Origin: Eledone cirrhosa
Lineage: Eukaryota
Direction of reading: 5' to 3'
Assembly: GCA_964016885.1 (NCBI GenBank)
Contig: CAXHJY010001390.1
Location: 62,001 to 126,000 of the forward strand
Length of the DNA: 64,000 bases
Part shown: piece by piece, positions 2,259-61,499 of the stretch
Position numbering within the stretch: the stretch's first letter is position 1
How the letters are laid out: the number at the start of each line of letters is the position of its first letter
Translations under genes and position numbers: made by a program
The notes under the pieces: model-generated
What the model was told of the DNA's origin: nothing
The model's database searches: none
Seen by the model: only the letters and a program-made list of their open reading frames with translations

Positions 2259-4661
2259 TTAACTGTATACTTTGTGAAAAGTCCTATGGAATTTATGCAG
2301 GCAGATAGAAAACAAATCTGTACGTCTATTTATTATAGAATCTAGGTTAGAGATAATGGTAAATTTTTCATTTAGACAGAGATTACAGATTTTAGATAGA
2401 GAGCTGTTCAAGTATGAGGATGCAGAAGAAACCTTCTTCCAAAAGATGGTATATTTTATGTTTTTGTCTTTCAAGGACCATATGAGTTCTGAGAGAGCCG
2501 TGTTGGTTCTTTTAAGTTTGTATTTGAAAGATGAATGATGATTGTAGAGACGAGCTTTAAAAGAGGTGGAAGTGGAGCCAAAATAGGTGAAGGAATTGGT
2601 GCTAGTTATAACTTTACATTCATAAATTAAGTTTTTATCGAGACAATGGTTGTTGAGAGGACATTTATTTTTAATGCGGCAGTTGCAATTAGAGAGATTA
2701 TTAATGAGTGACCTAGTGTTATCTATAGAAGGAATTGGATTGGAGAAGTTGTTTGCGATAGGAATAATAGGAATAATAGTTTCTTGATTTAGAGTTGGAT
2801 TATGAACATTTAGCGAAGTTGTGTTTGACGTTGTATTTGGGTTTACAGAAGTTAGCCTAGGGTTTACAATGACGTCGGGAGTACTATTACTGTTATTATG
2901 AAATTCAATGTTGGAAGGAAGAGATTTAGTATTTAGTATGTTATTGTTGTGTTTAGAGATGATGTTGGAAATATTGGAGGATGTAGAATAAGAAAATTTG
3001 ATGGTGTGTTTGTTAAATATTTTACTATAGATATGTGAGGGAGGGAAGCATTTATTTAAGGCACTAAAAAATAATTTAGGAATATTGTTATTAATAGAGA
3101 TGGAGAAAGGAGCATTATACCAGATTATGTTTTTGTATCTAGGTCTTTTATTAAAATTATTGGAATGATCATGATTAATTATTCTACTGTAAGTTTTTCT
3201 AGAATTTGTTTCTTTACTATATTTGATTTTATCTGGATAGCCGGCTTTAGAAAGTGCGTTATTATAGTAATTGGCGTTAGCATCAAAGATGTTTTTATTA
3301 GAAGATATGTTAGATATTCTTTTTCCAATATTACTAACTATAGCATTCTTGATATTGGTAGGATGGTTAGATTTAAAGTTAACATAATTTAGGTTCTCAT
3401 TGTTTTTATGGTAAGGGTAATATAGGCCAGTGTCAAGATTAAGAGATACATCCAAGAAATTAGCTAGTTTGATACTATTATCAAATTCAATTTTTAGGTT
3501 ATGTTGGTTAAAGAGATTACGTATATTGTTCTTAATAATATTAAGGTTAACTATATTGCAATTTAGGATAGTAAAGAGTCCATCGTCACGATAAATTCCA
3601 CCGCGAAGTTGAGGAATTTTCCGACTCAAGGAGTTCAAAATGAAGATACCAATTAAATCAGTCAATTGGGATGAATCGGATGCTCCCATTGTGATGTCGA
3701 AGTTGTTAGAGGTATCGGCTCTGGTCCAATATTCGTTGTTGAACTCTAGGATGGTTTTACGTGCGGTGAGGATGATGTGAAGTTCATCTGTGGTGATGTC
3801 AGAATATTTAAGTGCGAAAGATAGAGCATTATTGAGAAGTGAAGGCGAAATGGAGGAATAGTAGCTGGCAATATCAAATTGAATAAATTTTAGTTTGTTT
3901 TTATTATCCAATTTGTTGAACCAGCCAATCACTTCAGAAGTACCAAACCATAAATTTAGGTTCAAAGAAGAGCAATTAGAACTAACCTGTGGGATAATTC
4001 TATCCAAGATGGCTTTACTAACAACCCCCAGATCAGATTTAGAGGGGGCGATTAATCTAACAGGTAGTTCAGTGCGAAAATTGTTTTTGTGATCCTTGAG
4101 ATTTATCCTCGGAGTTCTTGGGAGGAATGGTTCGGTCTTTATTTCAATGCCAAGTTTTGACATAATCTCAGAGGCTTCAAGGTTTATGTATTCTAAATTT
4201 TCATGGTTGGTTTTACGATACTTTTTCCTAAGTTCCTTTAGGATAAGGTTGTTATAATTATCCTTGGAAATACCATATAAATTATTGGTTTTGTCAGAGT
4301 GGACTAAAACATTTTTTGAGGAATTTAGGTTAGAAATTGTGTTCTTGAGATTTACAAGGTGCTCTTGTCCTTTGTAAGGGTATCTCTTGAATTTAAGATT
4401 TTTTATTATTTTAGTTAATTCTTCCTCGAATTGTACTAGATTTTTGTTGGAAGGAGGATTTCGTCTAGAATTAAATAGATGATCGAGGAAGTTATGTTCT
4501 TTGGTATGGAAGTTCCCTTTTAGGCGCTGGTCATAGAAATAGGCTGTCCATCTAAGTCTTCTTACGAAGGAGTCAGTTTTTTCAATAAGAAGTTTGGTGA
4601 ATTCAGATTTACCAGGTATAGGAATGTCTTTAGTTGAATTGGTTATGTTGTAATAATCCAT
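2259..4661 (-). CDS. PLE reverse transcriptase-GIY-YIG endonuclease (~800 aa, uninterrupted)
   Basis: N-terminal KDIPIP...RRLRW; RT motifs [22 protein letters not shown]; CNC-x5-CPL-x3-C linker; LIYEC...YFGST GIY-YIG; C-terminal CNLC...CLH. Start placed at MDYYN because the upstream part of the ORF call is mostly microsatellite (an alternative Met lies at 4688). Confidence 0.9.
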
Positions 4662-4724
4662 GTTGTAGAAGAAGAGGTAAAAAACCATCAAAAGGTATCC
4701 AATATGAGAGTAAGCGTATACATA

Positions 4725-7585: not shown

Positions 7586-7589
<4 letters not shown>

Positions 7590-8787
7590 TGAGGGCCACC
7601 TCCTCCCTGGAATGACGTCAATAGAACAGAGACAGACGGAATCCCTGCTGGCCCTCACACCCAGGCTGTTCATGGTGCAAGCAATACTCCTCCCAACAAG
7701 AGGCGAAAATATCCTGGACCTCTGTTTTACAAACAACGAAGTGCTCATCCACAATGTAAAGGTGACACCAACAATTCTCTCGGATCATAACTTAGTAGAG
7801 CTAATGATATGTGGTCCAAGAGAACCAACAGAGACAAAACCACCAAGAAGCTCCGGGACGCTATCCAACCTTAACTTCTACAAGGCTAACTGGAAAAAGA
7901 TTAAGAGTGAAATCCGGAAGCAAACATGGAGTGAAAACACTGCCACACAAGACACTAACACACAATTTCAACACTTCATGACAACGATACACACCATATG
8001 CAAAAAGTGTGTCCCGGAAAAAGAGGCAAACAGACACAAAAATCTTATTCCCAGAGATAAGAAAATCCTTATGAAACGTAGAACTAAACTCTCAAACCAG
8101 TTGAATAGTCAACAAAACAAAAACAAGAAGGAATCCCATTTGAAACGTGCACTACTTGACACCGAGATTGCACTCAAACTTTCACATGAGAATGAGAGGG
8201 CAAAGAAAGAGAACAGGGCCATAGAAAACATTAAAACAAACCCTAAGGCCTTCTTTAAATTTGCAAAAGAAACTGCCTCAGTACACTGCAAGATTGGACC
8301 ACTCTTCCACACGGACGGTTCATTACCCGAAAATCCCCAAGAGATATATGAAATACTGAACGAACAGTACAAAAGTGTCTTCACATGTCCACTGAGGCAC
8401 ATGCAAATAACGAAGCCAGAGGAGTTCTTTGATGCCACAACACTACATGAAGAAATGGCAACCATCAACCACATAGACATAACGGAGGAGGATGTAGTGT
8501 ACGCCATTGATGAAATTAGAACAGACTCGACTGCTGGACCTGATGGATTCCCAGCAGTTCTCCTAAAAATATGTAAGCGGGCCTTAGCAACTCCACTGAA
8601 GATGCTCTTCAGAAGCTCCTTGGCTAGCGGTGTACTACCCAGGGAGCTGAAAGAAGGCACAATATGCCCTATCCATAAAGGAGGAAGTAGAGCGGAGGCC
8701 AAGAACTATAGGCCAGTCTCCCTGACGTCGCATATCAGTAAGGTCATGGAGCGAGTCGTCAGAAAGAAACTAATCACTTTCCTCGAA
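7586..8787 (+). mobile_element. Internal fragment of CR1/L2-group LINE family B (end of endonuclease to start of RT)
   Basis: [37 protein letters not shown]; closely similar to ~56140-57335; both ends abut (TA)n. Confidence 0.9.
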
Positions 8788-8933
<146 letters not shown>

Positions 8934-8935
8934 CA

Positions 8936-9017
<82 letters not shown>

Positions 9018-9255
9018 CATGCTACTGTACGTCTGTATACATATATGTATGTACGTATACATACATACTTACATTTAAGTAAGTGCCATACTAAGAGTGG
9101 GAAATGAAATTTCGTTTTAATTTTTTTCAACTTATCGTTTTCGGTATGCCTGACCGATTTAACTCACTCAATATGCAAATTAGGCTGCTCAGCCGTTAAT
9201 TTTCATAAGGAAATTATATACTTTCGAACGTTCAACTATGTGGCAGATGGGTATA

Positions 9256-9296
9256 CGGTGCTGATGATAGTTAACAAGCTAGAAACTAGTACATCG
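9256..9296 (+). ncRNA. Minimal type I hammerhead ribozyme
   Basis: cggtg CTGATGA tagtt-aaca-agcta GAAAC-ta-GTA catcg. Confidence 0.88.
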
Positions 9297-9447
9297 TTCC
9301 TGTGTCAGTGTTGAACAAAAAGGTGACGTGGTTGCCTTAACACCGTATGGCATAAATTCAGGCTGTTCAGTTTGTTTACAAACGAACAAAGCGGCGTTAT
9401 AATAAGCGTCCGCTAAACTGATGCGTGCATATATGTATGTGTACCTG

Positions 9448-9536
<89 letters not shown>

Positions 9537-9775
9537 GCATGCTACTGTACGTCTGTATACATATATGTATGTACGTATACATACATACTTACATTTAAGT
9601 AAGTGCCATACTAAGAGTGACAAATGAAATTTCGTTTTCATTTTTTTCAACTTATCGTTTTCGGTATGCCTGACCGATTTAACTCACTCAATATGCAAAT
9701 TAGGCTGCTCAGCCGTTAATTTTCATAAGGAAAGTATATACTTTCGAACGTTCAACTATCTGGCAGATGGGTATA

Positions 9776-9816
9776 CGGTGCTGATGATAGCTAACAAGCT
9801 TGAAACTAGTACATCG
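9776..9816 (+). ncRNA. Minimal type I hammerhead ribozyme (second monomer)
   Basis: cggtg CTGATGA tagct-aaca-agctt GAAAC-ta-GTA catcg, 520 nt after the first copy. Confidence 0.88.
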
Positions 9817-9961
9817 TTCCTGTGTCAGTGTTGAACAAAAAGTCGACGTGGTTGCCTTAACACCGTATGGCATAAATTCAGGCTGTTCAGTTTGTTTACA
9901 AACGAACAAAGCGGCGTTATAATAAGCGTCCGCTAAACTGATGCGTGCATATGTGTACCTG

Positions 9962-10027
<66 letters not shown>

Positions 10028-10238
10028 CATGCTACTGTACGTCTGTATACATATATGAATGTACGTATACATACATACTTACATGTAAGTAAGTGCCATA
10101 CTAAGAGTGAGAAATGAAATTTCGTTTTCATTTTTTTCAACTTATATATATATGTATATATATATATGTATATATATGTATATATATATATATGTATATA
10201 TATATATGTATATATATATATGTATATATATATATATG

Positions 10239-10269
<31 letters not shown>

Positions 10270-10460
10270 GTATATATGTATATATATATATATATGTATA
10301 TATTGGAATAAATGCTCTGAAATAGCGATATATATGTGAATATAGACATAGAATATTCGAAAATATTCTGTATGTTTATAATAAACATTTTGAAGACCTA
10401 ATCGCTATAGAATAGAATACGTCACGTATTACAATTAGATTCTCGATAAAAGCAAGGGAA

Positions 10461-10503
10461 GTAATCTACGCGTTTCATTCTTGTTAGAAATCTTCAGGAC
10501 TAC
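10461..10503 (-). ncRNA. Minimal type I hammerhead ribozyme
   Basis: Minus strand: gtagtc CTGAAGA tttct-aaca-agaat GAAAC-gc-GTA gattac. Confidence 0.88.
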
Positions 10504-10770
10504 ATATCCAGTGCTTTTATCGAGAATGACACAGCTAGAGACTTATAGAATACTTAGCTGTGTACAGGAACTGGTTTGAAAGAGCGGTTGCCGGTCCGGC
10601 AGAAATTAGAAATTGGAATAAATGCTCTGAAATAGCGATATATATGTGAATATAGACATAGAATATTCGAAAATATTCTGTATGTTTATAATAAACATTT
10701 TGAAGACCTAATCGCTATAGAATAGAATACGTCACGTATTACAATTAGATTCTCGATAAAAGCAAGGGAA

Positions 10771-10813
10771 GTAATCTACGCGTTTCATTCTTGTTAGAAA
10801 TCTTCAGGACTAC
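10771..10813 (-). ncRNA. Minimal type I hammerhead ribozyme (second monomer)
   Basis: Identical motif 310 nt away. Confidence 0.88.
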
Positions 10814-11140
10814 ATATCCAGTGCTTTTATCGAGAATGACACAGCTAGAGACTTATAGAATACTTAGCTGTGTACAGGAACTGGTTTGAAAGAGCGGTTG
10901 CCGGTCCGGCAGAAATTAGAAATTGGAATAAATGCTCTGAAATAGCGATATATATGTGAATATAGACATAGAATATTCGAAAATATTCTGTCAAGAATGA
11001 AACGCGTAGATTACTTCCCTTGCTTTTATCGAGAATCTAATTGTAATACGTGACGTATTCTATTCTATAGCGATTAGGTCTTCAAAATGTTTATTATAAA
11101 CATACAGAATATTTTCGAATATTCTATGTCTATATTCACA

Positions 11141-12808
<1,668 letters not shown>

Positions 12809-21157: not shown

Positions 21158-21196
21158 TGAAATATAAGAATCAAAGAACTGTTCAAAACATTATTG

Positions 21197-21243
21197 TGCT
21201 TACAGCTGTTTCCTCCAAACCGAGGTTTGGATTCTTCGGAGCA
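21197..21243 (-). ncRNA. Hammerhead ribozyme, CCGAAGA core variant (inverted arm)
   Basis: Minus strand: tgct CCGAAGA a tccaaacc-tc-ggtttgga g GAAAC-agct-GTA agca. Confidence 0.75.
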
Positions 21244-23347
21244 ATTTATTAACGCATGGACAGTTATATGACCTCCTTTTCAGCCGAGAGACATACCAAT
21301 ACATATTCAAGCATTGATACATATTCAAACATTGTGGGTCAACATTCATTACAGAATTTAGAGTGGCAGTACACACTTCGAGATTACATTTATATTAATA
21401 GGTACAATCAAAAATCAAAGATATAGGTTAAAGTACAACATGAAGATAAGTGGTTATATAGTGCAAATGTTATATGTGTGGCACGCATGTGTGTCTTGTT
21501 TATATAGTGTGGCAGAGAGATATGTGTGGTAGAGGCACTTAGGTAGGTAAATAAGAGTGTTAGGTTGGTAGATCTGGTGGCAAAGTCTTTATAAGATTGA
21601 TATAGTCTGTGTGTGGAGAAATATTATAAGCATTAAAGATAGTGCAAGCATTAAAAGTGTTATAAGTATTGGAGATGCACAGCGCAGGGATGTCAAGTAA
21701 TTCATGTACTTCGGCATTTTCATGGTCAAGGGAGTGTATATTTCGATTATATGCCTTTCACATAATCCACGATAATCCAGTTAGAGATCGTAGTCTGGTG
21801 TTCTTTAGTTCGATACAGGAGGTTGTTACGTTTCGAGAAACGCCATTGAATACCGGAAGTGTGTGTGTGGCTAATGGGAGTTAATGCATGCGGGGAGGTA
21901 ACTCTGGGGTTTCTATATCTAGCCATTAAAATGTGTCCCAATATAGACCCTAAATTCTATGGTGAGGTGCACCTTCCAAGAGAGACTTTTAAAGCATAAA
22001 GTGTACTAACTATAGAGTAGTTTAACTAAATTATGCTGAAGGTGATCATATTATTATTAAGGTGGATTAACCCATCTTAAGGTGCTACAAATGGAAATTA
22101 TAGATGATGAGCGAGGATTCTAAATTAATGATCTCTGTGGTTGTAGTCTGCTCATATGACCAGGCGCGGTGATTGCAGGATTGCTTCAGGACCCAATGAT
22201 CTCTGGTAAGATCTGGGTCATCGCTTGCTACATTGGATGTCGAAAGATAATCGTCCCCAGGCAGGCCAAAGGTCAATCCGCAGTCCTCGGGACCCCTCTC
22301 TGACCGTCAGATCATCCATATACGTACAACCCGCACGGCAGTTGCATTGCATTCACTCACTGCGCTCAGCAGCCCGGTCCTACTGGTCAACAGCGCTACT
22401 CGATTAAATCATTTTACATCTGTCTAAGGAAGGTGTTTCCTCTGCCCAACACCATCCAACCGATCAATTCATGCTCAAATTACCCTTAGACCGGTGTGGT
22501 GCCGTCCAAGTGGGTGGATGTTGTCACACCTGCCGTAGAGGTATAAATGGGTATTTTCCCTGCGAAGGGTTCCAGAGGGATGTCGTTGTTTGTGTTATAA
22601 TGGATCAGCTAGTGTTGGGTATGTAGTATAGGGTGTGTCTCTGGTGTTTGATGCTAGATGTGGTGTTAGGTTCCAGTCCGACATTGCTATATATAGGGCT
22701 TAACGTTTTGGAAGGAATGTCTGAGGCGGTGCTGGCAAGTTGCAAACACCTCAGATTTTTTGTTAAGTAGGTTACGGTTGGAGAAGATAATATTGTGTGT
22801 CTCTAGTATACAGAGATTACAGAATTTATTAGGTGGTTTGTACGAGGTCGCGCTGCCTATCACTTCCCATTTGAGTGTGTATGGTTTATTTTTAGATTTT
22901 AGATAGTGTATGTAGCTAGAAAGTGAGGTGGAGTTGGCTAGGCTGTGCTTTTTGAACGAGTGGATGTGCGAGTTATATCTGATTTTGAAGCAGTTAGAAG
23001 TGGAGCCTACATAAGTTTCTGAAGAGTTATTAGTCGTGACTGTGCATGAGTATATGACATCCTTGGTTAGGCATTTTTTATCTAAAGGGCAGGTTCTATT
23101 AGCTCTACAGTTACAATTATTCTGTGCGTTAGTTCGCTGGTTATAATGCAATGCGGAAGTCTGTGTGGTGGATATAGGGTTTTGGGTGTTCGGGTTGGCA
23201 ACCCTGGTGTTATTACTTATACTAGTGTTATTTCTATTGTTACTGCCGTTGCTATTGTTGCTTGCTACAGTGGTATTTAGAGGGTTTGCATCCCGTTGTG
23301 ATTTTGTTTGTTGGAAGTAAGAACTAATTTTACTATTATTGCTGCTA

Positions 23348-25751
23348 GGAATACATATGAGAAATTGCTGATCAACAGTGTAAATTCATTTATCAATAGA
23401 GTGAGATGGAGGACATTCCATTATGATAGAAACAAATCTAACAACTTGAATAATACTAACAATTTTGACTCCTTCGGCTTTAAAACCTTTAAAAGCCCCC
23501 CTCATAACACTCTACTTAACTCCTTTGAAAATGACCTAGTTAAACTAGTTAAGAACATTAAATACAATAAGCACCATATTAGAAGCAACACCTTCTTAAA
23601 CAAACTTAACACTTCTATTAGTGGATTCAAAACTAGTAATAAAATTATTGTACACGCAGATAAAACTAATAACATATACAGCCTAGATTATATTACTTAT
23701 AGAAAGTTTATATATAATGAACTACATAAAAGCTACAAAAAAACCACCTTGAAAAACTTAGAAGATATTAATGTAGAGGGTTATAATATAGTGTCTAAAC
23801 TAGGACTACAGAGGCATACACAACCTTTCACTCCGAACCCCCTAGATTCTCTCTGAAGGACCATAAGGAGAACTTCATCAGCAACCCCACGATAAGACTT
23901 ATCTGCCCTTCCAAGTCCGACATTGGTATTATCAGCAAGAAGATTTTGGATAAAATCATCCCACAAATTAAACACAAGATACACCTTAAACAATGGGGAA
24001 ATACGGGTGAAGTAATTGAATGGTTTAAGGATATCAAGAATAATAAGAACAAAAAATTTATTCAATTTGATATCAATTCATACTACACCTCTATTTCCCC
24101 TATCCTATTAAATAAGGCACTTATCATGGCCATGACCAATAGCGACCTGACTAGAGCCCAGGTTGATGTCATCCTTGCGGCCCGTAAAACCATAATCACC
24201 TTCGAGGACCAACTATGGACACGCAAGGATACGCACAACAACTTCGACATAACCATGGGATCTAGTGACTCGGCGCAGGTCACTGATTTGGTCGGCCTAT
24301 ACCTCCTCAATGAAATCCATAAAGACCTCCCTTACCTCAACGGAGGTTTGTACCGCGATGATGCACTTCTACTCATAGAATATAAAAAATTTAATATAGA
24401 AAGAACTAGAAAACAACTGCATAAGACATTCAAAAACTTTAACCTTAGTATCACCATGGACAAAAACACTAAAAATGTTAACTTCCTAGACGCCACACTA
24501 TACCTAGACTCAAAAATATATACACCTTTCCATAAGCCTAATGAGAAACTTATTTACGTAGATACCAAGTCTAATCACCCTAGATCAATATTAAACTCTA
24601 TCTCTAAGGGGGTGTCCAATAGAATCTCTAGTCTGTCCTATGACGCAAACATATTTAGCAAAAACTCACAATATTACAATCAAGCATTAGCTAGCTCCGG
24701 CCATAATATAGAAATTGAGTTCCTACCTAAGAAAACACATAGCTACAACATAATCTCGCACAACATGTCCATGAGGAAATCTAATAATAGGAATAGCAAC
24801 CACAAGTACACCAAAGCGGAGGGTGCCACAGGAAGTAACCATTACCATGGAAACTACTGTGAGGCCTTAGGAGGAAGCAACACACCAAACACTAAAAGCA
24901 AAAATAGAAGAAGAAATAATACATTTTTCAACCCTCCTTTCAACCTAAATGTCTCCACCAACATACCTAGGGCTTTCTTCTCACTACTAGATAAAAACTT
25001 CCCTCGAGGACACAAGTACCACAACCTCTTAAACAAAAACACCATTAAAATCTCATACTCTACGACGCCTAACTTAGCATACCACATAGCTAGCAGCAAT
25101 AATAGTAAAATTAGTTCTTACTTCCAACAAACAAAATCACAACGGGATGCAAACCCTCTAAATACCACTGTAGCAAGCAACAATAGCAACGGCAGTAACA
25201 ATAGAAATAACACTAGTATAAGTAATAACACCAGGGTTGCCAACCCGAACACCCAAAATCCTATATCCACCACACAGACTTCCGCATTGCATTATAACCA
25301 GCGAACTAACGCACAGAATAATTGTAACTGTAGAGCTAATAGAACCTGCCCTTTAGATAAAAAATGCCTAACCAAGGATGTCATATACTCATGCACAGTC
25401 ACGACTAATAACTCTTCAGAAACTTATGTAGGCTCCACTTCTAACTGCTTCAAAATCAGATATAACTCGCACATCCACTCGTTCAAAAAGCACAGCCTAG
25501 CCAACTCCACCTCACTTTCTAGCTACATACACTATCTAAAATCTAAAAATAAACCATACACACTCAAATGGGAAGTGATAGGCAGCGCGACCTCGTACAA
25601 ACCACCTAATAAATTCTGTAATCTCTGTATACTAGAGACACACAATATTATCTTCTCCAACCGTAACCTACTTAACAAAAAATCTGAGGTGTTTGCAACT
25701 TGCCAGCACCGCCTCAGACATTCCTTCCAAAACTTTAAGCCCTATATATAG
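23348..25751 (+). pseudogene. Naiad RT-GIY-YIG ORF, slightly 5'-truncated, one frameshift near 23840
   Basis: FINRVRWR, FIQFDINSYY, MGSSDS, LYRDDA, CNC-x5-CPL-x3-C, VIYSC..YVGST, CNLC..CQH. Confidence 0.9.
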
Positions 25752-27194
25752 CAATGTCGGACTGGAACCTAACACCACATCTAGCATCAAACACCAGAGA
25801 CACACCCTATACTACATACCCAACACTAGCTGATCCATTATAACACAAACAACGACATCCCTCTGGAACCCTTCGCAGGGAAAATACCCATTTATACCTC
25901 TACGGCAGGTGTGACAACATCCACCCACTTGGACGGCACCACATCGCTCTAAGGGTAATTTGAGCATGAATTGATCGGTTGGATGGTGTTGGGCAGAGGA
26001 AACACCTTCCTTAGACAGATGTAAAATGATTTAATCGAGTAGCGCTGTTGACCAGTAGGACCGGGCTGCTGAGCGCAGTGAGTGAATGCAATGCAACTGC
26101 CGTGCGGGTTGTACGTATATGGATGATCTGACGGTCAGAGAGGGGTCCCGAGGACTGCGGATTGACCTTTGGCCTGCCTGGGGACGATTATCTTTCGACA
26201 TCCAATGTAGCAAGCGATGACCCAGATCTTACCAGAGATCATTGGGTCCTGAAGCAATCCTGCAATCACCGCGCCTGGTCATATGAGCAGACTACAACCA
26301 CAGAGATCATTAATTTAGAATCCTCGCTCATCATCTATAATTTCCATTTGTAGCACCTTAAGATGGGTTAATCCACCTTAATAATAATATGATCACCTTC
26401 AGCATAATTTAGTTAAACTACTCTATAGTTAGTACACTTTATGCTTTAAAAGTCTCTCTTGGAAGGTGCACCTCACCATAGAATTTAGGGTCTATATTGG
26501 GACACATTTTAATGGCTAGATATAGAAACCCCAGAGTTACCTCCCCGCATGCATTAACTCCCATTAGCCACACACACACTTCCGGTATTCAATGGCGTTT
26601 CTCGAAACGTAACAACCTCCTGTATCGAACTAAAGAACACCAGACTACGATCTCTAACTGGATTGTCGTGGATTATGTGAAAGGCATATAATCGAAATAT
26701 ACACTCCCTTGACCATGAAAATGCCGAAGTACATGAATTACTTGACATCCCTGCGCTGTGCATCTCCAATACTTATAACACTTTTAATGCTTGCACTATC
26801 TTTAATGCTTATAATATTTCTCCACACACAGACTATATCAATCTTATAAAGACTTTGCCACCAGATCTACCAACCTAACACTCTTATTTACCTACCTAAG
26901 TGCCTCTACCACACATATCTCTCTGCCACACTATATAAACAAGACACACATGCGTGCCACACATATAACATTTGCACTATATAACCACTTATCTTCATGT
27001 TGTACTTTAACCTATATCTTTGATTTTTGATTGTACCTATTAATATAAATGTAATCTCGAAGTGTGTACTGCCACTCTAAATTCTGTAATGAATGTTGAC
27101 CCACAATGTTTGAATATGTATCAATGCTTGAATATGTATTGGTATGTCTCTCGGCTGAAAAGGAGGTCATATAACTGTCCATGCGTTAATAAAT

Positions 27195-27241
27195 TGCCCC
27201 GAAGAATCCAAACCTCGGTTTGGAGGAAACAGCTGTAAGCA
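27195..27241 (+). ncRNA. Hammerhead ribozyme, CCGAAGA core variant (main copy)
   Basis: Same motif with one stem I mismatch (tgcc). Confidence 0.7.
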
Positions 27242-27445
27242 CAATAATGTTTTGAACAGTTCTTTGATTCTTATATTTCATATAACTGCTCTGTAAATCA
27301 TCTGATGTTTTTACATTGAGCTACTTAACTTACTGGTAATAAGGTAGTAATACATTACTGCCTACTCCTATTTAGGGTGTGTGTAAAATACTTACAACTG
27401 CTTAAGGTTTTGTGTTTACATAACCATAAATAGTATAACTAATAC

Positions 27446-30240
<2,795 letters not shown>

Positions 30241-34585: not shown

Positions 34586-37223
<2,638 letters not shown>

Positions 37224-37560
37224 CATTTCATCATTTCATTTCATTTCACGTCCACTTTTTCCCTGCCTGCAAGGGTGGGACGGGAACTGATTCTGGCTTG
37301 ATTTCTACAGCTGGATGCCCTTCCTAACACCAACCTAATTTACAGTGAGTGCTGGGTGCTTTTTTGCCGTGGCACCTCCACGACCACTTTGCAGTGGAAT
37401 GATAGGGACCGCAGTCCCTATCATCTCATTTCTACAGCAGAGTAAACTGGAGCAATGTGAAATAAAGTGTCTTGCTCAAGGAAACAACACATCACCCGGT
37501 CTGAGAATTGAACTCACAACCTTTCGATTGCAAAGCCAATGGTCTAACCACTAAGCCATG
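37224..37560 (-). mobile_element. tRNA-derived CORE-like SINE with RTE-type 3' tail
   Basis: TGGCTTAGTGG A-box, GAGTTCAATTC B-box, CCTTGAGCAAGACACTTT core-like segment; 3' end matches the RTE family 1 end (~27588-27628). Confidence 0.75.
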
Positions 37561-38797: not shown

Positions 38798-40081
<1,284 letters not shown>

Positions 40082-40180
40082 AAGTAATTCCATCGGAAAA
40101 GTCCAGGAAAAAAGAGTGCTCTATGTATGCAACAGAGCTTAATTATTATTATTATGTAATAAACAACATAAGGCAATTAT

Positions 40181-40238
40181 TCCATTTACCAGTGGTTTCT
40201 TAAAAGCAAAAGGTTTTGCTTTCAATCCTCAGAATGAA
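40181..40238 (-). ncRNA. Type I hammerhead ribozyme (Naiad family 3, distal)
   Basis: Minus strand: ttcatt CTGAGGA ttgaaagcaaaa-cc-ttttgcttttaa GAAAC-cactg-GTA aatgga. Confidence 0.88.
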
Positions 40239-40438
40239 AAATCCTGGTTTGTTTATTGAATCTGGATTCTAAAAACAAAAATGCAATCTATATTAAAGTG
40301 AGGCTGGAAAAGGGAGAAGGAAAGGAAAAATAAAATAAAACTACACATGCAAACACACACATAAAAACACAAAAGCATACTAACACACACATACATATAT
40401 ACACATACATATAAATGTACGCATACACATATACACAT

Positions 40439-40486
<48 letters not shown>

Positions 40487-40631
40487 AGCGTACACCTACA
40501 CACACATACACATATATACACACATATACACATACATATAGTCATACATACACACACACACACACACATATATACACACATACACACACACACACATACA
40601 CACACACATATATATACACATGTACATATCC

Positions 40632-40729
<98 letters not shown>

Positions 40730-41115
40730 GTGTGTACAAGCATACACATACACACACACATATATATATACACACACATATACATACATTCACAGAAACA
40801 TACAACGTACATACATACACATACATGAATGCACTCCACTACATATTAACACACGCAAATAAATAGAAGAAAAAAATATATAAATATATATTAACAACAT
40901 TTTTGACAGCGATACATGCCCCAGCTAACAGGACAGACACGCGTGGTAAGTAATACACACATAAGCACATATACATACGTTCGAAATAGTAAACACATAC
41001 ACACACTCTCACACATAAATATACATATACAAATACATAAACACGTACATACACATACATACACAAACACGTACACGTATACAATATAAACACACACATA
41101 TATATGTAATTATAT

Positions 41116-41168
<53 letters not shown>

Positions 41169-41640
41169 CATACATATATATATATATACATACATACGAA
41201 AATATAAAAATATAAACGCACACACACATATAAATACGTAAACACACATATACATACATAGCTAAACAATTATACACATGCAAATACGTATATATCAAAA
41301 GAACGCACAACCAAATACAAACACACACACATATACACACACACACACACCCACACACAAACCCACGCATACATAAAAATGAATAAATACACACGCACAC
41401 ATATACATACATACACATACATATACATATATACATATATACATATACATACATATATATACACATATATATATAAATATACATATATACACACATACAC
41501 GTACACATACACACATGCATACACATACACACACACATATACATGTGTGTATGTGTAAAGCTCAGTATTAGATAAGACAAATGAACCTTACACAAACGTA
41601 TATATAGTAGTAAAGTAATAAAGCCATACAAGGCAATTAA

Positions 41641-41698
41641 TCCATTCACCAGAGGTTTCTTAAAGGCAAAAAAAGTTTCCTTCAATCTTCAGAATGAA
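41641..41698 (-). ncRNA. Second, probably non-cleaving hammerhead paralogue (GUG triplet)
   Basis: ttcatt CTGAAGA ... GAAAC-ctctg-GTG aatgga. Confidence 0.65.
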
Positions 41699-42109
41699 AA
41701 AAAGGCCTGGTTTATCCACATATACATACATATACACACACAAATATACAAATATATACACACATACAGACACGCATACACACATATATATATATACATA
41801 TACATATATATACAGACATATATACATATATATATATATATACATACACATACATATACATACATACATACACATACATATACATACACAAACATATACG
41901 TACACATATACATATATACACACAAAAATACATACACATACACATAGGTATGTGAAGGGCAAAACAAAAAGAATATATGGGGGGGGCTAAGAGGAGGTAA
42001 AAATATAAGGGGAGGTGAGGGAGAAAAAAAAAATTTAAATATACAAGAGTACAGAAGGTAGAAGCAGCAAAATAAAAACCGTAGCAAAAGTAAAGAGCAG
42101 AGAAGGAGT

Positions 42110-43789
42110 TCAAGGCGGTTGATTTATCGTAGGAGTGTCAATCCAGTTACAGATCAGATGCGATTTCAGATGAGGACAGCATCTGAAGATCTCAGTCTTA
42201 GAGTTAAGGCAAGCGGAAGTGTCTCTCAAGTTTAGCAAAATCCTATACTTTTCTGTGGTACACAAAGAACAATTCTTTGTGCCCCTTTGGTACTCCCTCG
42301 AATGGTCTAATATAGACCAATCAATAGAGTACGGGATATTACTATCCTTGAGATCCCATACCTTACTTGCGAGGGCCGTTGATGTTCGTTTATCTGAGTG
42401 TTTAAAAGAAGCGACATGTGAGTAAAATCTGGTTTTAAACCTGTCCTGGGTCATACCGACATATCGCTCGCTTCTGGCTGGCTGGTTGTTGATAACTGGC
42501 GTTATTTTAGCCTCATAAACGACAGATTTTGTGTTACATTTACCCTGCAATGGGCATTCATCCGGCTTCCTGCAACTGCATCCTGGATTTATCCTCGTAC
42601 GGTTTGAACTGGTGATTTTGGACTTCATGGATGGGCAACAAGAGTAGCTGATCTTAACTACATTCCTATTAAAAATCTTATAATATCTATGAATAGGAGG
42701 AAAATGTTTGTCTAATAGTTCAAGGAATTTCCTTCCTACATTAGTTTTGACATTTAGAGAGAAGGGGGGTGTGAACCAAATAATCTTCCTTTTCCTGTTA
42801 TTATGGTTAGTTTTAGGGGGGGGGAGTAGGTAAATAAGAAATATTTTCTGTAAAACCGCTGTTCTTAAGGGCTTTATTATAATAAGGGGCGGCTTTATTA
42901 AAAATGTCTATAGACGAAGATAAGGTAGAAATCCTACGGCTAATGTTAGGAATAAGATTATTAAAAACTATAGGGGGATGGCAAGACTCTTTGTGTATAT
43001 ACCTAAGATTTTCATTAGGTTTATAATAGGGTTTAAAAGAGGCAGTAAGTAGATCAAGATTAATATCAAGAAAGTTAGCATTAGTAAGGTTCGTATCTAT
43101 AGTAATTTTAAGGTTAAGATTAGCAAAAGTACTAATTAAATCTTTACGGAATTTATCAAGATTATGGCCATTGGTGGTATGAGAAACTGCTAATCCGTCA
43201 TCACGGTATAAACCGATATTATGGGACGGAAATTTCTCTTTGAGTGTGTGGAGAATGAATAATCCTACTAAGTCGCACACATCCGCACTGTCATAAGAAC
43301 CCATTGCAACATCGAAAGAGTTTTCAGGGTTTGACTTTTTAACCCAAATATTATCATTAGTAAAAAGTAAAGTTTTTCTACCATGAAAGATAATGTCCTC
43401 TTCTAATTTGGAGATATTAATGAAGGGTCTTGCAAAATCTAAGGCTTTAGTTAATAAGGAAACAGTAATAGAAGGGTAAAAATCGACAATATCAAACTGG
43501 GTAAATCTAAACTTATTTTTACCTTGTATATTATTGAACCAAGAAATAACAGAGGAAGTATTTAGCCACTGTGAAAGGACAGTGTTAGTTCTAATTTGGA
43601 GAATTATTTTTCTTAAGATTTTCTTACTAGCAAGGCCAACCTCGGATTTAGCCGGGTTAATCAGTCTACAACTAGGTCGATTAGTAAAGTCCAATTTATG
43701 GTCTTTAAGGGTAATATATGCTTTACGCTTAGCTAAGCTTTCAATCCGGTTATCTATTTGTAAAGAACTAGCTAGTTCTTTAGCTTCTT
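42110..43789 (-). pseudogene. Naiad RT-GIY-YIG, truncated and frameshifted near 42760-42820
   Basis: ITLKDHK, FTQFDIVDFYP, MGSYDS, LYRDDG, CSC-x5-CPL-x3-C, VVYEA...YVGMT, CSLC...CCPH. Confidence 0.9.
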
Positions 43790-44681
43790 CCAGGATGCAG
43801 TTGCAGGAAGCCGGATGAATGCCCATTGCAGGGTAAATGTAACACAAAATCTGTCGTTTATGAGGCTAAAATAACGCCTGTTATCAACAACCAGCCAGCC
43901 AGAAGCGAGCGATATGTCGGTATGACCCAGGACAGGTTTAAAACCAGATTTTACTCACATGTCGCTTCTTTTAAACACTCAGATAAACGAACATCAACGG
44001 CCCTCGCAAGTAAGGTATGGGATCTCAAGGATAGTAATATCCCGTACTCTATTGATTGGTCTATATTAGACCATTCGAGGGAGTACCAAAGGGGCACAAA
44101 GAATTGTTCTTTGTGTACCACAGAAAAGTATAGGATTTTGCTAAACTTGAGAGACACTTCCGCTTGCCTTAACTCTAAGACTGAGATCTTCAGATGCTGT
44201 CCTCATCTGAAATCGCATCTGATCTGTAACTGGATTGACACTCCTACGATAAATCAACCGCCTTGAACTCCTTCTCTGCTCTTTACTTTTGCTACGGTTT
44301 TTATTTTGCTGCTTCTACCTTCTGTACTCTTGTATATTTAAAATTTTTTTTTTTTTCTCCCTCACCTCCCCTTATATTTTTACCTCCTCTTAGCCCCCCC
44401 CCCATATATTCTTTTTGTTTTGCTCTTCACATACCTATGTGTATGTGTATGTATTTTTGTGTGTGTATATGTATATGTGTACGTATATGTTTGTGTATGT
44501 ATATGTATGTGTATGTATGTATGTATATGTATGTGTATGTATATATATATATATGTATATATGTCTGTATATATATGTATATGTATATATATATATGTGT
44601 GTATGCGTGTCTGTATGTGTGTATATATTTGTATATTTGTGTGTGTATATGTATGTATATGTGGATAAACCAGGCCTTTTT

Positions 44682-44740
44682 TTCATTCTGAAGATTGAAG
44701 GAAACTATTTTTTGCTTTTAAGAAACCTCTGGTGAATGGA
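44682..44740 (+). ncRNA. GUG-triplet hammerhead paralogue in the inverted arm
   Basis: Mirror of 41641-41698. Confidence 0.65.
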
Positions 44741-45210
44741 TTAATTGCCTTGTATGGCTTTATTACTTTACTACTATATATACGTTTGTGTAAGGTTCAT
44801 TTGTCTTATCTAATACTGAGCTTTACACATACACACATGTATATGTGTGTGTGTATGTGTATGCATGTGTGTATGTGTACGTGTATGTGTGTATATATGT
44901 ATATTTATATATATATGTGTATATATATGTATGTATATTTATATATGTATATATGTATATGTATGTGTATGTATGTATATGTGTGCGTATGTATTTATTT
45001 ATTTTTATGTATGCGTGGGTTTGTGTGTGGGTGTGTGTGTGTGTGTATATGTGTGTGTGTTTGTATTTGGTTGTGCGTTCTTTTGATATATACGTATTTG
45101 CATGTGTATAATTGTTTAGCTATGTATGTATATGTGTGTTTACGTATTTATATGTGTGTGTGCGTTTATATTTTTATATTTTCGTATGTATGTATATATA
45201 TATATGTATG

Positions 45211-45267
<57 letters not shown>

Positions 45268-45654
45268 ATATAATTACATATACATGTGTGTGTTTATATT
45301 GTATACGTGTACGTGTTTGTGTATGTATGTGTATGTACGTGTTTATGTATTTGTATATGTATATTTATGTGTGAGAGTGTGTGTATGTGTTTACTATTTC
45401 GAACGTATGTATATGTGCTTATGTGTGTATTACTTACCACGCGTGTCTGTCCTGTTAGCTGGGGCATGTATCGCTGTCAAAAATTTTGTTAATATATATT
45501 TATATATTTTTTTCTTATATTTATTTGCGTGTGTTAATATGTAGTGGAGTGCATTCATGTATGTGTATGTATGTACGTTGTATGTTTGTGTGAATGTATG
45601 TATATGTGTGTGTATATATATGTGTGCCTGTATGTGTATGCTTGTACACACACA

Positions 45655-45775
<121 letters not shown>

Positions 45776-45814
45776 GGATATGTACATGTGTATATATATG
45801 TGTGTGTGTATGTG

Positions 45815-45853
<39 letters not shown>

Positions 45854-45916
45854 ATGTATGACTATATGTATGTGTATATGTGTGTATATATGTGTATGTG
45901 TGTGTAGGTGTACGCT

Positions 45917-45978
<62 letters not shown>

Positions 45979-46178
45979 ATGTGTATATGTGTATGCGTAC
46001 ATTTATATGTATGTGTATATATGTATGTGTGTGTTAGTATGCTTTTGTGTTTTTTTGTGTGTGTTTGCATGTGTAGTTTTATTTTATTTTTCCTTTCCTT
46101 CTCCCTTTTCCAGCCTCACTTTCATATAGATTGCATTTTTGTTTTTAGAATCCATATTCAATAAACAAACCAGGATTT

Positions 46179-46236
46179 TTCATTCTGAGGATTGAAAGCA
46201 AAACCTTTTGCTTTTAAGAAACCACTGGTAAATGGA
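46179..46236 (+). ncRNA. Type I hammerhead ribozyme in the inverted arm
   Basis: Mirror of 40181-40238. Confidence 0.88.
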
Positions 46237-46272
46237 ATAATTGCCTTATGTTGTTTATTACATAATAATAAT

Positions 46273-46944
<672 letters not shown>

Positions 46945-48283: not shown

Positions 48284-49400
<1,117 letters not shown>

Positions 49401-50464
49401 TTTATTCAGGTTTGAGGTTCACCACTGTATAGAGCTGGTCTATTCCGTATGGTCAATCGTAATGCAATAATATAGAGAGTACTCAACGTAAAGCAGTTCA
49501 ACCGTCTTTGTTTTTGTAGTTGGTGGTGCTATTACGGAGTTAAATATTATAATGAAATGACAGGAGGCTGGATTTGTGTAAATCCTTGAAAGGTTTATTA
49601 TACTATGATCATTTCAATGACCGGGTTCCGTATGAATCCGGTGATATCATCAGGTATTCGAAATATAATACGTGAATGTAATAGGTAAAATCCATGGGGC
49701 TGAAAATCGAGACCCGAGGGCGACCGCTATTCTGTTCCTTCAACCTCAGCCGGTCGCCCTGGAGTGACGTGGCTAAATTTTATAGTATGCTACTACCGGT
49801 CAGATGAACGAAAACAGAAAGAGATGGGAGCATAGGTTAACGTCGATCCCATGACACAAGGTAAAAGAAAGAAAGAAAGGAAGGAGAAGAAGGGGGAAGA
49901 AAGAAGAAGAGAAGTCAGGGTTAATGTCAGCTAAAAGAGGAAGGTAACTACTACTGGTCAGATATAGGCAAGCAAGAGGGGGAAGGAAGATAAGTCTGCG
50001 GGAGGAGGAGAGGAGAGAAGGAAGGGGAGAAAGAAGTAGAAAAGTAAGGGTTGATGGCTACAAGAAGGAAGATAGAAAGGAAGAGGAAGAAAGGTCGATA
50101 TTAATGTCAGACCACAGTCAAGCCAGGAGTGGCGCGAGAAAATTTTCACAGGGACCCGCATCTTAGCGGAGATGAATATATTGGGAGTCAGTGTTTTACA
50201 GTGTTTAGACTTCTAGGATGAAGCTAAAAAAATTTAATAATCAATATTCAATATTAAAGAGGTTAGAAAATTTAAAGTTCAACAGTTTAACAATTAATTA
50301 TATAATAGTTCCGATTTGTTCTGTAATTTAAAGGTACTATTTGGCGGTTAAAACAACGGCCACGCCCCGGGCCCCATGGCGAATTAAGCCACGCCGATTA
50401 TTTTCATTTACTGAAAGAAGGGGAAATTTATTTTTCCAAGCACTCCAGGTGAGCTCGTTCGCCA
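49401..50464 (-). mobile_element. Probable PLE 3' UTR/pLTR remnant of another family
   Basis: HHR followed by a ~200-nt tail into (TA)n; pyrimidine-rich UTR on the minus strand; no convincing ORF. Confidence 0.6.
49600..49657 (-). ncRNA. Type I hammerhead ribozyme
   Basis: Minus strand: atac CTGATGA tatc accggattc-atacg-gaacccggt catt GAAAT-gatc-ATA gtat. Confidence 0.8.
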
Positions 50465-50625: not shown

Positions 50626-50967
50626 GCCATCCGGAACCTGTTTATAGAATTCTGTCTGCCCTTGTTACTCTAAAAACATAGATAAATAAAAATAAAAATA
50701 AACTATAGCTTTGTAGAATTAGCTTTTAATGAATTCCCTTTTCTATCAACCAATGACCTGCACCCATCCCACTCCCCACCCTCTCCTACCACTTGTAGAG
50801 ACCTATAAATACCATATTTATTTTTTGATACCCAGATTCCTGATGATTTCTAATGAATGAAACAGTTCTAGTCCTGTAGAATCTCATCTATATTAAAACT
50901 GTTATACTCTGCTATGTATTGAGTAACTTACTTACTGTGGTTACCTCCGATTCAACCCGGAATAACG

Positions 50968-55923: not shown

Positions 55924-58731
55924 GTACTGTTGACACATTCAAATTCAGTCTGTGACACACTGATAATACATATGAAGCAACTACAGACAGTAATATGTGT
56001 CACATATCGGCCGCCCGATGCCCCCATCATGAGTGTAAATTTGAGGATAGCCTAAGTAGGATAGAAGAGGTCCTTGACAAACTGGACCAGGGTCTCAACA
56101 TTCTACTGCTGGGAGACTTCAACCTATCAAAGGTCAAATGGCCTGAGGGCCAGGCCCTCCCTGGAATGACGTCAATAGAACAGAGACAGACGGAAACCCT
56201 GCTGGCCCTCACCCACAAGCTGTTCATGGAGCAAGCAATACTCCTCCCAACAAGGGGCGAAAATGTCCTGGACCTCTGTTTTACAAACAACGAAGTGCTC
56301 ATCCACAATGTAAAGGTGACACCAACAATTCTCTCGGATCATAACTTAGTAGAGCTAATGATATGTGGTCCAAGAGAACCAACAGAGACAAAACCACCAA
56401 GAAGCTCCAGGACGCTATCCAGCCTTAACTTATACAAGGCTAACTGGAAAAAGATTAAGAGAGAAATCCGGAAGCAAACATGGAGTGAAAACACCGCCAC
56501 ACAAGACACTAACACACAATTTCAACACTTCATGACAACGATACACACTATATGCAAAAAGTGTGTCCCGGAGAAAAAGGCAAACAGACACAAAAATCTT
56601 ATTCCCAGAGATAGGAAAATCCTTATGAGATGAGGAAGCAAACTCTCAAACCAGTTGAATAGTCAACAAAACAAAAACAAAAGGAATCCTGCTTGAAATG
56701 TGCATTATTTGGCACCGAGATTGCACTCAAGCTTTCCCATGAGAATGAGAGGGCAAAGAAAGAGAACAGGGCCATAGAAAACATTAAAACAATACTAAGG
56801 CCTTATTTAAGTTTGCAAAAGAAACTGCCTCAGTACACTGCAAGATTGGGCCACTCTTCCATACGGACGGTTCATTAACCGAAAACCCCCAAGAGATATG
56901 TGAAATACTGAACGAACAGTACAAAAGTGTGTTCACATGTCCACTGAGGCACATGCAAATAACGAAGCCAGGGGAGTTCTTTGATGCCACAACACTACAT
57001 GAAGAAATGGCAACCATCAACCACATAGACATAACGGAGGAGGATGGGGTGTACGCCATTGATGAAATTCGAACAGACTCGGCTGCTGGACCTGATGGAT
57101 TCCCAACAGTTCTCTTAAAAAATGTAAGCGGGCCTTAGCAACTCCACTGAATATGCTCTTCAGAAGCTCCTTGGCTAGCGGTGTACTACTCAGGGAGCTG
57201 AAAGAAGGCACAATATGCCCTATCATAAAGGAGGTAGCAGAGCGGAGGCCAAAAACTATAGGCCAGTCTCTCTGACGTCGCATATCAGTAAGGTCATGGA
57301 GCGAGTCGTCAGAAAGAAACTGATCACTTTCCTCGAGGAAAATGACCGCCTGACTAGCACGCAACATGGCTTCCGCCCAGGAAGAAGCTGCCTTACACAG
57401 CTGCTACATCACTACGACTGGGTACTGAGACAACTACTAGACAGCTCATATGTGGACGTGATATATCTTGACTTTGCGATGCCTTTGATAAGGTCGACCA
57501 CGGAATGATATGTCACAAACTACATGGACTCGGCATAACTGGAAAAGTAGGTGAGTGGCTGCATGACTTCCTAAAGGACAGAAGCCAGTCAGTCGCAGCA
57601 AATAGGGCCCTCTCAAAGGAAACACCAATAACAAGTGGGGTGCCCCAGGGGACAGTCCTGGGACCACTACTGTTTTTGGTGGTTCTCTCAGACATGCCCT
57701 CTGTAGTACATACAACAATATCCCTCACTAGCTATGCTGATGACACTAAGGTAGCACAGGCAATCAAAAACCCCGCTGACGCTGCCCTTTTACAGCAGGA
57801 TCTGGATGCCATATACAAATGGGCGGAAGAAAACAACATGCAGTTTAATGCTGGCAAATTCCAAGCCCTACAATACAAACCTCCAAACAAACCTGCAAAC
57901 ACAAATATAGTACAACACAACTACACAGGACCAGGAGGGACCGATATCCCCGTTTCAAAATCGATACGAGACCTGGGCATAGACAGGAGCGATGATGCAT
58001 CTTTTTCTTCACCCATCATGAAAGTGGCGACATGTGCAGACGACTCGCTGGCTGGACCTTGAGGACTTTCCGGACAAGAGATCGAGACACCATGTTGACA
58101 CTATGGAGGACATTTGTCCTAAGCCGCCTGGACTACTGCTCCCAGTTGTGGTCACCCCATAGTGTCAAACTAGCCACGGAGCTTGAGGCAATCCAGCGAA
58201 GCTACACCAAGAGGATTGCCACGATGAAGGAGACAAGCTACTGGGAGAGGCTAAAGGAACTGAACCTCTACTCCTTGGAACAAAGACGGGAGAGATACGC
58301 ATTGATCTACATGTGGAAAATCCTGGAGGGACTAGCACCAAACTTCGGCATTGGGAGCTGGACCAACTGTCGAACAGGACGTCACTGTGTGGTGCCAAAG
58401 GTCCCGTCTTCCACATCTAGAATAAGGAACAGGTATTGCAATAGCTTGGGATTCAAGGGCCCTCAACTCTTCAACAAGCTGCCGAGGGATCTGAGAGATC
58501 TGCATGACGTGGAGGTGGATGTCTTCAAGAAACATCTCGACACCTTGTTATCCAGGATCCCGGATGAGCCCACAGCAAGACACGAGGGAAACCTAAGGGC
58601 AGCAGCAACAAACTCCCTCTTACACCAGTGGCCAACCTATACAGGCTGGAGATAAAATGTGTAGCAAGAAGGGCGGTGCCCCAGCATGGCCTCAGCCAGA
58701 TGGCTGAAACAGGTAAAAGAGTAAAAGAGTA
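55924..58731 (+). mobile_element. 5'-truncated, decayed CR1/L2-group LINE family B
   Basis: APE and RT motifs ([33 protein letters not shown]) across several frameshifts; 3' end GGGCGGTGCCCCAGCATGGCC...GTAAAAGAGTAAAAGAGTA then (TA)n. Confidence 0.92.
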
Positions 58732-58885: not shown

Positions 58886-58955
58886 AACAAGGTTTAGCAA
58901 ATAATGAAAAAGTTTCAAAATAAATTTTAAAAAATTGACTTTACCTACTATAGTT

Positions 58956-59055
58956 ACCTTTACCGATCGGTTTCGAATCCCCCCCCCCCCCCCCCCCAAA
59001 AAAAAACCGGAGACCATACGGCCTTCGTTGCAAAGAAAGATTCTCGTCAGAAGGT
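58956..59055 (-). ncRNA. Type I hammerhead ribozyme with large loop II
   Basis: Minus strand: acctt CTGACGA gaatc...gattc GAAACC-gatc-GGTA aaggt. Confidence 0.85.

Positions 59056-60998: not shown

Positions 60999-61499
<501 letters not shown>

What the first reader, a model, noticed from the sequence alone, without database searches (positions are those of the whole stretch)
9015..10143. Retrozyme candidate A: ~520-nt monomer carrying its own (TA)n tract
Seen: two HHRs exactly 520 nt apart, ~2.2 monomers, no coding capacity, and a variable (TA)n inside each monomer. Established: HHR-to-HHR cleavage of such arrays yields monomers that circularise, and partial tandem copies fit rolling-circle reverse transcription. 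Inference: the built-in (UA)n could guide insertion into (TA)n.
Basis: partly seen in the sequence, partly recalled or inferred. Interest (0 to 1): 0.75.

Follow-up and report, generated by a model that had tools for sequence, protein, structure and literature searches.

The report
Retrozyme carrying its own TA target
This 1.1-kb non-coding tandem repeat has two hammerhead-ribozyme motifs and a long TA microsatellite between its units; it is likely a 'retrozyme', a parasite copied by Penelope-like jumping genes that insert into TA repeats, and whether its RNA is cut, circular or uses the TA tract as a guide is untested.

Summary
Observation confirmed. 9015-10145 holds two 427-433-nt non-coding units and a 119-nt third start, separated by (TA)n tracts of 87 and 63 nt. 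Type I hammerheads cleave at 9291/9292 and 9811/9812; the scan finds 12 such motifs in the window against 0.08 in shuffles. Their shape (6-bp helix I, 4-bp helix II with U·U, palindromic helix III) is the dimer-type form of animal non-LTR retrozymes, not the Penelope minimal form. No ORF link was found; one public run shows a large family (5646 contigs) without 5' truncation. The window holds three Hydra-like Penelope ORFs, a clade known to target (TA)n, and five sibling hammerhead families whose ends fuse to (TA)n at short internal TA motifs (4 of 5 with at least 4 nt; null 4%) or after a tail. The 119-nt piece reads as such a tail, so the TA was likely in the template. Circularity, rolling-circle copying and a guide role are unshown; published biochemistry shows Penelope can copy uncut linear tandem RNA without target homology. 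New variant of a known kind; moderate interest.

The parts
8787..9014 (.). Upstream (TA)n tract, 228 nt, target side of the 5' junction; it cuts off an APE-type LINE fragment (7588-8786), not a Penelope ORF
9015..9447 (+). Unit 1 (433 nt), non-coding; first ~60 nt and last ~28 nt are decayed TA-like sequence
9232..9314 (+). Predicted long rod (extended helix I, about 23 bp with internal loops) with hammerhead 1 at its tip
   Evidence: predicted
9255..9297 (+). Type I hammerhead 1: helix I 9255-9260/9292-9297, core 9261-9267, helix II 9268-9281, GAAA 9282-9285, palindromic helix III 9285-9290, cleavage 9291/9292
9448..9534 (.). Internal (TA)n tract 1, 87 nt, starting 156 nt after the cleavage site
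9535..9961 (+). Unit 2 (427 nt); carries the majority allele of run X1 at all 5 listed sites where it differs from unit 1
9775..9817 (+). Type I hammerhead 2, U·U at the base of helix II, cleavage 9811/9812
9962..10024 (.). Internal (TA)n tract 2, 63 nt
10025..10145 (+). Start of a third unit (119 nt plus 3-nt TA microhomology), read as a Penelope-type tail
   Evidence: inference from PMC11167929
10146..10301 (.). Downstream G-interrupted (TA)n tract, target side of the 3' junction

Best explanation
It is a tandem, non-coding, hammerhead-bearing repeat sitting in (TA)n, likely a non-autonomous Penelope-dependent element (an animal non-LTR retrozyme) that was likely copied by the reverse transcriptase and GIY-YIG nuclease of a TA-targeting Penelope-like element from a tandem read-through RNA that likely already held a TA tract between its units. 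Shown: the units, the two hammerhead motifs, the absence of an ORF, a large variable family in one public run, Hydra-like ORFs and sibling hammerhead families with TA-fused ends in the same window. Inferred steps: (1) an ancestral unit inserted in (TA)n, a further copy or read-through put TA between units, and the tract became part of the period (decayed TA-like margins point to repeated capture); (2) the + strand is transcribed as a structured tandem RNA whose hammerheads would cut mainly as a pair, releasing a 490-520-nt monomer that a host ligase may close; (3) the partner nuclease nicks (TA)n, reverse transcription starts inside the RNA 119 nt past a tract (the tail) with 3 nt of TA pairing, runs through two units and two tracts, and the copied tract likely pairs with target TA at the far end, which would explain why the 5' junction falls exactly at a unit start; (4) tract lengths then drift by slippage. 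Target choice most likely comes from the partner's nuclease; the tract likely helps joining rather than acting as a true guide.
For: Hammerhead geometry matches the 'canonical' metazoan type I form (helix I 6 bp, helix II 4 bp, short palindromic helix III, active as dimer; PMC4209133 passages) and the axolotl retrozyme motifs (single-pair helix III with palindromic tetraloop; U·U at the base of helix II; PMC7229834). Forcing the paired hammerhead costs 6 kcal/mol less than two single ones in the whole array (-376.3 vs -370.0). The non-TA core folds better than shuffles on the + strand only (z -4.1 and -3.7 vs -1.7 and -0.8; 60 shuffles each). Run X1: 5646 contigs laid, summed depth 0.45-1.8 million over 9085-9452 with no rise towards the 3' end, share running on into unlike sequence 0. 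Three Hydra-like ORFs with CxCX5C, CxxC and CxH motifs, two with RW and DKT; Hydra elements carry hammerheads and almost all insert into (TA)n (PMC8557442 section 11). Five sibling families show a short end 45-139 nt after the hammerhead and a tail end 112-213 nt after it; short ends share 5, 2, 7, 4 and 5 nt of alternating TA with the target (4 of 5 at least 4 nt; null 4.0%, P about 1e-5), tail-type ends 2, 2, 3, 3 nt (null 23% each, P about 0.003) (cases picked by eye). Tails mark internal RT start sites (PMC11167929). A second tandem (34586-37048) keeps a composite (TA)n(TG)n at all 3 junctions, showing that tracts can be inherited inside a period here.
Against: No partner with nucleotide similarity in the window (blastn; nhmmer one search finds only the neighbouring 310-nt family's hammerhead, E 0.02). 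The predicted lowest-energy fold of the array (-385.3) mispairs the catalytic core; the active paired form lies 9 kcal/mol above it. Only 1 of 9 Xenopus dimers cleaved and PLE hammerheads are weak in vitro. The tail is longer than the 30-40 nt described in print and includes a whole TA tract. No target-site duplication can be read in TA. No genome was held, so other loci could not be inspected, and reads skipped 9005-9084. X1 shares 62% of sampled words and may be another species.
Confidence: 0.66

Rival explanations
1. A single TA-flanked unit was duplicated at the DNA level by unequal exchange between its flanking TA tracts, and a third copy was later cut back by deletion. The TA is then only target sequence and need never have been in a template RNA.
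For: Both complete units start and stop at TA; tract lengths differ (87, 63 nt); the window has many TA-centred rearrangements; unequal crossover is proposed for retrozyme arrays. X1 shows mostly full-length units.
Against: Needs extra events; the third piece ends with the same 2-3-nt TA microhomology as sibling tails; decayed TA-like margins are a fixed part of all three copies.
Confidence: 0.14
2. One reading: a monomer circle is copied by rolling-circle reverse transcription and its (UA)n anneals to the nicked (TA)n target as a guide.
For: Coral, mussel and axolotl retrozymes give circles (PMC7229834); helix I would hold the cut ends together; sibling ends favour TA microhomology; Terminons place a target-complementary repeat after the hammerhead (PMC6431247 passages).
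Against: This insertion's 3' end is not at the tract but 119 nt past it. Unit 1 differs from units 2 and 3 at 9119, a common family polymorphism in X1 (46/54%), and at 9281 (9/91%), which one circle should not give (about 0.1-0.2 such hits expected by my hand estimate; weak, as 9281 perfects an inverted repeat and may recur). The (UA)n is predicted to form a 44-bp hairpin. A purified Poseidon element starts at sites not homologous to the cut DNA and needs no hammerhead cleavage.
Confidence: 0.12
3. The units are pseudo-LTRs shed by an autonomous Penelope-like element whose ORF lies elsewhere.
For: Tandem plus tail is the standard pLTR layout; retrozymes and pLTRs are close relatives (24 of 57 Xenopus families match known TEs, 21 of the 22 being PLEs); runs X5 and X6 show the hammerhead rod joined to other upstream sequence at 9250; the Hydra-like ORF at 2259-4715 begins right after a TA tract.
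Against: The upstream neighbour is an APE-type LINE piece; all three copies start at the same base instead of at random 5' breaks; no 5'-3' depth gradient and no run-on into unlike sequence in X1; the hammerhead has a short helix II, unlike the long helix II of the Hydra-linked motifs here and of PLE minimal motifs.
Confidence: 0.08

Closest known systems
Animal non-LTR retrozymes (PMC7229834; 10.64898/2026.07.22.740005)
   Same: Non-coding tandem repeat, one type I hammerhead per unit, canonical dimer-type geometry, low GC, large family, Penelope-like elements in the same genome.
   Different: Period 490-520 nt (150-450 in PMC7229834; 51-972 in the preprint); a long, variable (TA)n inside the period and TA-embedded ends, not mentioned in the main texts read ('microsatellite' 0 times in PMC7229834; once, in another sense, in the preprint). 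Circles not shown here.
Hydra-clade (also Neptune, Naiad) Penelope-like elements (PMC8557442)
   Same: Hammerhead near the 3' end, insertion into (TA)n, partial tandem and tail.
   Different: No ORF; no sequence similarity to the three Hydra-like elements in the window; long TA inside the period rather than only around it.
Terminon/Athena endonuclease-less PLEs (PMC6431247 passages)
   Same: A target-like simple repeat downstream of a hammerhead; works-like comparison for the guide idea.
   Different: There the repeat is short, directly after the ribozyme and pairs with telomeric overhangs; here it is 63-87 nt, about 150 nt downstream, self-complementary, internal to chromosomes and would need a nuclease in trans.
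Microsatellite-targeting non-LTR retrotransposons Waldo, Mino, Kibi, Koshi, Dong (PMC3812793 passages)
   Same: Insert into simple repeats.
   Different: Autonomous; targeting ascribed mainly to the endonuclease; no hammerhead tandem.

Membership tests
Animal non-LTR retrozyme | At least two consecutive tandem units each with a complete type I hammerhead | tested here: met
   criterion from the preprint
Animal non-LTR retrozyme | No protein-coding capacity | tested here: met
Animal non-LTR retrozyme | Canonical rather than PLE-minimal hammerhead (helix I 6 bp, helix II 4 bp, short palindromic helix III) | tested here: met
   against PMC4209133 passages; loop 1-loop 2 tertiary contacts not tested
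Animal non-LTR retrozyme | Multi-copy family in the genome | tested here: inconclusive
   5646 contigs in run X1, but the run's kind is not on record, it may be another species, and depth is no copy number
Animal non-LTR retrozyme | Unit length within the described range | tested here: met
   490-520 nt; within 51-972, above 150-450
Animal non-LTR retrozyme | Self-cleavage and monomeric linear/circular RNA | not testable with these tools
   no RNA run could be laid; folding only
pLTR of an autonomous PLE | Joined to an RT-GIY-YIG ORF | tested here: inconclusive
   not at this locus, no run-on in X1 over 9085-9452; 9005-9084 skipped and no genome held
pLTR of an autonomous PLE | Variable 5' truncation of copies | tested here: not met
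   3 of 3 copies start at the same base; no depth gradient in X1
Penelope-type insertion | Partial tandem with an optional 3' tail | tested here: met
   119-nt extension, longer than the 30-40 nt in print
Penelope-type insertion | Inverted 5'-truncated copy or target-site duplication | tested here: inconclusive
   no inverted copy at this locus; duplication unreadable in TA
Terminon/Athena | Telomeric repeat directly after the hammerhead, RT ORF | tested here: not met

The most novel reading that the evidence does not exclude
A retrozyme that has captured its target microsatellite and uses it as a built-in RNA anchor: the (UA)n in a circular or tandem RNA pairs with nicked genomic (TA)n to start or finish reverse transcription, making it the chromosome-internal, non-autonomous counterpart of Terminon telomere attachment, and a machine that spreads and lengthens (TA)n, so building its own targets. 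The short internal TA motifs at the ends of five sibling families would be the ancestral form of the same device.
Probability: 0.25. Interest if true: 0.68.

Novelty: new variant of a known kind. Interest (0 to 1): 0.38.

Why it matters
How Penelope-like elements choose and join microsatellite targets, and whether retrozyme circles are real transposition templates, are open questions (PMC8557442, PMC7229834, PMC11167929). This window offers an unusually complete test set: an apparently intact Hydra-like ORF, sibling hammerhead families with short internal TA motifs at their ends, and a passenger with a long internal tract. If RNA-target pairing matters for TA-targeting clades, it would contrast with the homology-free initiation shown for Poseidon and would link retrozymes to microsatellite birth. 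If not, this is one more retrozyme family in a TA-rich animal genome.

Tried and rejected
No whole genome is held, so copy number and end mapping could not be done. Exact-pattern scans found nothing in metagenome contigs, viral contigs or genome contigs. Sequencing runs: no RNA holder listed. Of the 4 runs laid (of 24 listed), X5 (34 contigs) and X6 (570, mostly at the TA-like end) hold only part of the unit at low depth and X23 gave 2 reads under 90% alike. Rfam miRNA hits are TA-hairpin artefacts; the z of -10.5 for the monomer is inflated by the UA hairpin and was replaced by the core-only test. The 17-kcal advantage of the paired hammerhead was biased by clipping helix I of copy 1; the whole-array figure (6 kcal) is used. 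The first microhomology null (P values) counted only one side of the junction and was replaced; the 310-nt family's 8 nt runs through a mismatch and is counted as 4; Hydra1's end (5 nt) was left out as the same family as the 61-kb element. Pairing of the unit's two TA-like margins across the tract: 24 bp at junction 1 (19 of 2000 shuffles) but 10 bp at junction 2 (1697 of 2000), so not kept as evidence. My early label 'minimal hammerhead' was dropped. Absence of variants in the catalytic core in X1 is not significant (24 variable sites in about 370 nt). The protein search on the Hydra-like ORF gave 15 unnamed relatives at 33-39% identity and no host information. No tRNA in the window. Host taxon was not determined.

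Full report
What is there. The stretch 9015-10145 consists of unit 1 (433 nt), (TA)n of 87 nt, unit 2 (427 nt), (TA)n of 63 nt and the first 119 nt of a third unit, with further (TA)n on both sides. Units 1 and 2 differ by 9 internal substitutions, the first base and a 6-nt indel; the third piece differs from each at 4 places. Each complete unit has a type I hammerhead on the + strand, cleaving after 9291 and 9811. The descriptor finds 12 motifs in the window and 0.08 on average in 60 shuffles, and 6 against 0 at stricter settings. There is no credible ORF. The period is 520 then 490 nt, and one full hammerhead-to-hammerhead monomer is encoded.

The ribozyme. Helix I has 6 bp and is predicted to continue through internal loops into a rod of about 23 bp; helix II has 4 bp, a 4-nt loop and U·U at its base (U-A in unit 1); helix III is a 6-nt palindrome that cannot close on itself beyond one pair. 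By the passages of PMC4209133 this is the canonical metazoan form that works as a dimer, not the PLE minimal form with a 7-8-bp helix II; the axolotl retrozyme motifs have the same two traits (PMC7229834). In the whole array the forced paired form scores -376.3 kcal/mol, two single forms -370.0 and the free fold, which mispairs the core, -385.3. So cleavage is possible, best as a pair, but not assured; 1 of 9 Xenopus dimers cleaved in the 2026 preprint. The core without TA-like sequence is more structured than shuffles on the + strand (0 of 60 as stable, both units) and not clearly on the - strand (2 and 13 of 60).

The family. No genome is held. Twenty of 24 listed runs hold part of the unit; I laid 4. 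In X1, 5646 contigs lie on 9085-9460, most at 90-99% identity, with high summed depth and no gradient, and the share running on into unlike sequence is 0. That suggests a large family of mostly full-length units, with the cautions that depth is no copy number, the run's kind is unknown and 9005-9084 was skipped. Units 1 and 2 agree at 19 of 24 variable sites; at the other 5 unit 2 has the majority allele. At 9119 unit 1 has one common allele and units 2 and 3 the other, weak evidence against all three coming from one monomer circle. X5 and X6 hold diverged partial relatives, some with the hammerhead rod in other surroundings.

The neighbourhood. The upstream flank is an APE-type LINE fragment cut by TA. 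The window holds three Penelope-like ORFs with Hydra-clade motifs (2259-4715, 23302-25751, 42110-43865) and three other GIY-YIG fragments; Hydra elements have hammerheads and almost all insert into (TA)n (PMC8557442). None resembles this unit at the DNA level, so the partner is unidentified. Five hammerhead families here show two kinds of 3' end: one fused to target TA 45-139 nt after the cleavage site, the other running on to 112-213 nt. The short ends sit at internal TA motifs (5, 2, 7, 4, 5 nt shared with the target; 4 of 5 at least 4 nt against a 4.0% null), and four tail-type ends, this array's included, share 2-3 nt (null 23% each). The cases were chosen by eye and are few. In this element the long tract begins 150-156 nt after the cut and the array ends 334 nt after it: the tract is the long counterpart of the siblings' internal motif, and the 119-nt piece reads as the tail. 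A second tandem at 34586-37048 keeps (TA)n(TG)n at 3 of 3 junctions, so tracts carried inside a period are not unique to this family.

Mechanism. Most likely (0.66) a non-autonomous Penelope-dependent retrozyme, copied from a tandem RNA that held the tract, into (TA)n chosen by the partner's nuclease; the tract was captured from earlier targets (the margins are decayed TA-like sequence) and may help join the far end. All steps beyond anatomy are inferred. On the other side, tested retrozymes of coral, mussel and axolotl do form circles, Terminons use a repeat after the hammerhead to pair with their target, and sibling ends favour TA pairing. DNA-level duplication between TA tracts (0.14) and an orphan pLTR (0.08) remain.

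Novelty. Hammerhead tandems, their Penelope link and TA targeting are each in print. A retrozyme with a long target microsatellite inside its period was not found in nine searches. What I saw of each paper: 10.64898/2026.07.22.740005 parts 1-3 of 5 (abstract to discussion; supplements closed); PMC7229834 parts 2-4 of 6 and term passages (supplement unreadable); PMC11167929 parts 1-3 of 4; PMC8557442 passages, section 11 and two supplement rows; PMC4209133, PMC6431247, PMC3812793, PMC8969392 and PMC3846280 passages only. Verdict: new variant of a known kind, interest 0.38.

Noticed in passing
34586-37048: Tandem of 646-nt units with a variable (TA)n(TG)n tract at all three junctions; no hammerhead core by a relaxed scan, no Rfam hit, no tRNA: the same layout without a recognised ribozyme.
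   Followed up: partly
2259-4715 (-), hammerhead at 1230-1176: Apparently intact ~800-aa Penelope-like ORF with Hydra-clade motifs, TA on both sides; relatives only 33-39% identical. A candidate enzyme for in vitro work.
   Followed up: partly
21168-27450 and 40075-46275: Two more Hydra-like elements (frameshifted) inside long inverted duplications, each with a short end and a tail end; the hammerhead cleaving after 27237 has C in place of U at core position 4.
   Followed up: partly
10302-11146: 310-nt hammerhead tandem on the - strand (2.2 units, 100% alike) with an inverted truncated copy and a 26-nt tail: textbook Penelope layout; its hammerhead shares the helix II loop and U·U with this element.
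   Followed up: partly
58890-60082; 61141-61499; 49398-49660; 50627-50967: Further non-coding hammerhead elements ending in (TA)n; 12 strict motifs in 64 kb, in about seven families.
   Followed up: partly
14833-17506/17872-20545; 12107-12359/12554-12806: Inverted duplications (98-99% alike) whose axis is a (TA)n tract, one of them of a LINE; fold-back at self-complementary TA or an assembly effect.
   Followed up: no
7588-8786: Internal LINE fragment cut by (TA)n at both ends, 95% alike to 56142-57335, its other parts absent nearby.
   Followed up: partly
37223-37556: SINE-like piece between TA tracts that resembles cephalopod SINE sequence by recall only; no call tested this.
   Followed up: no
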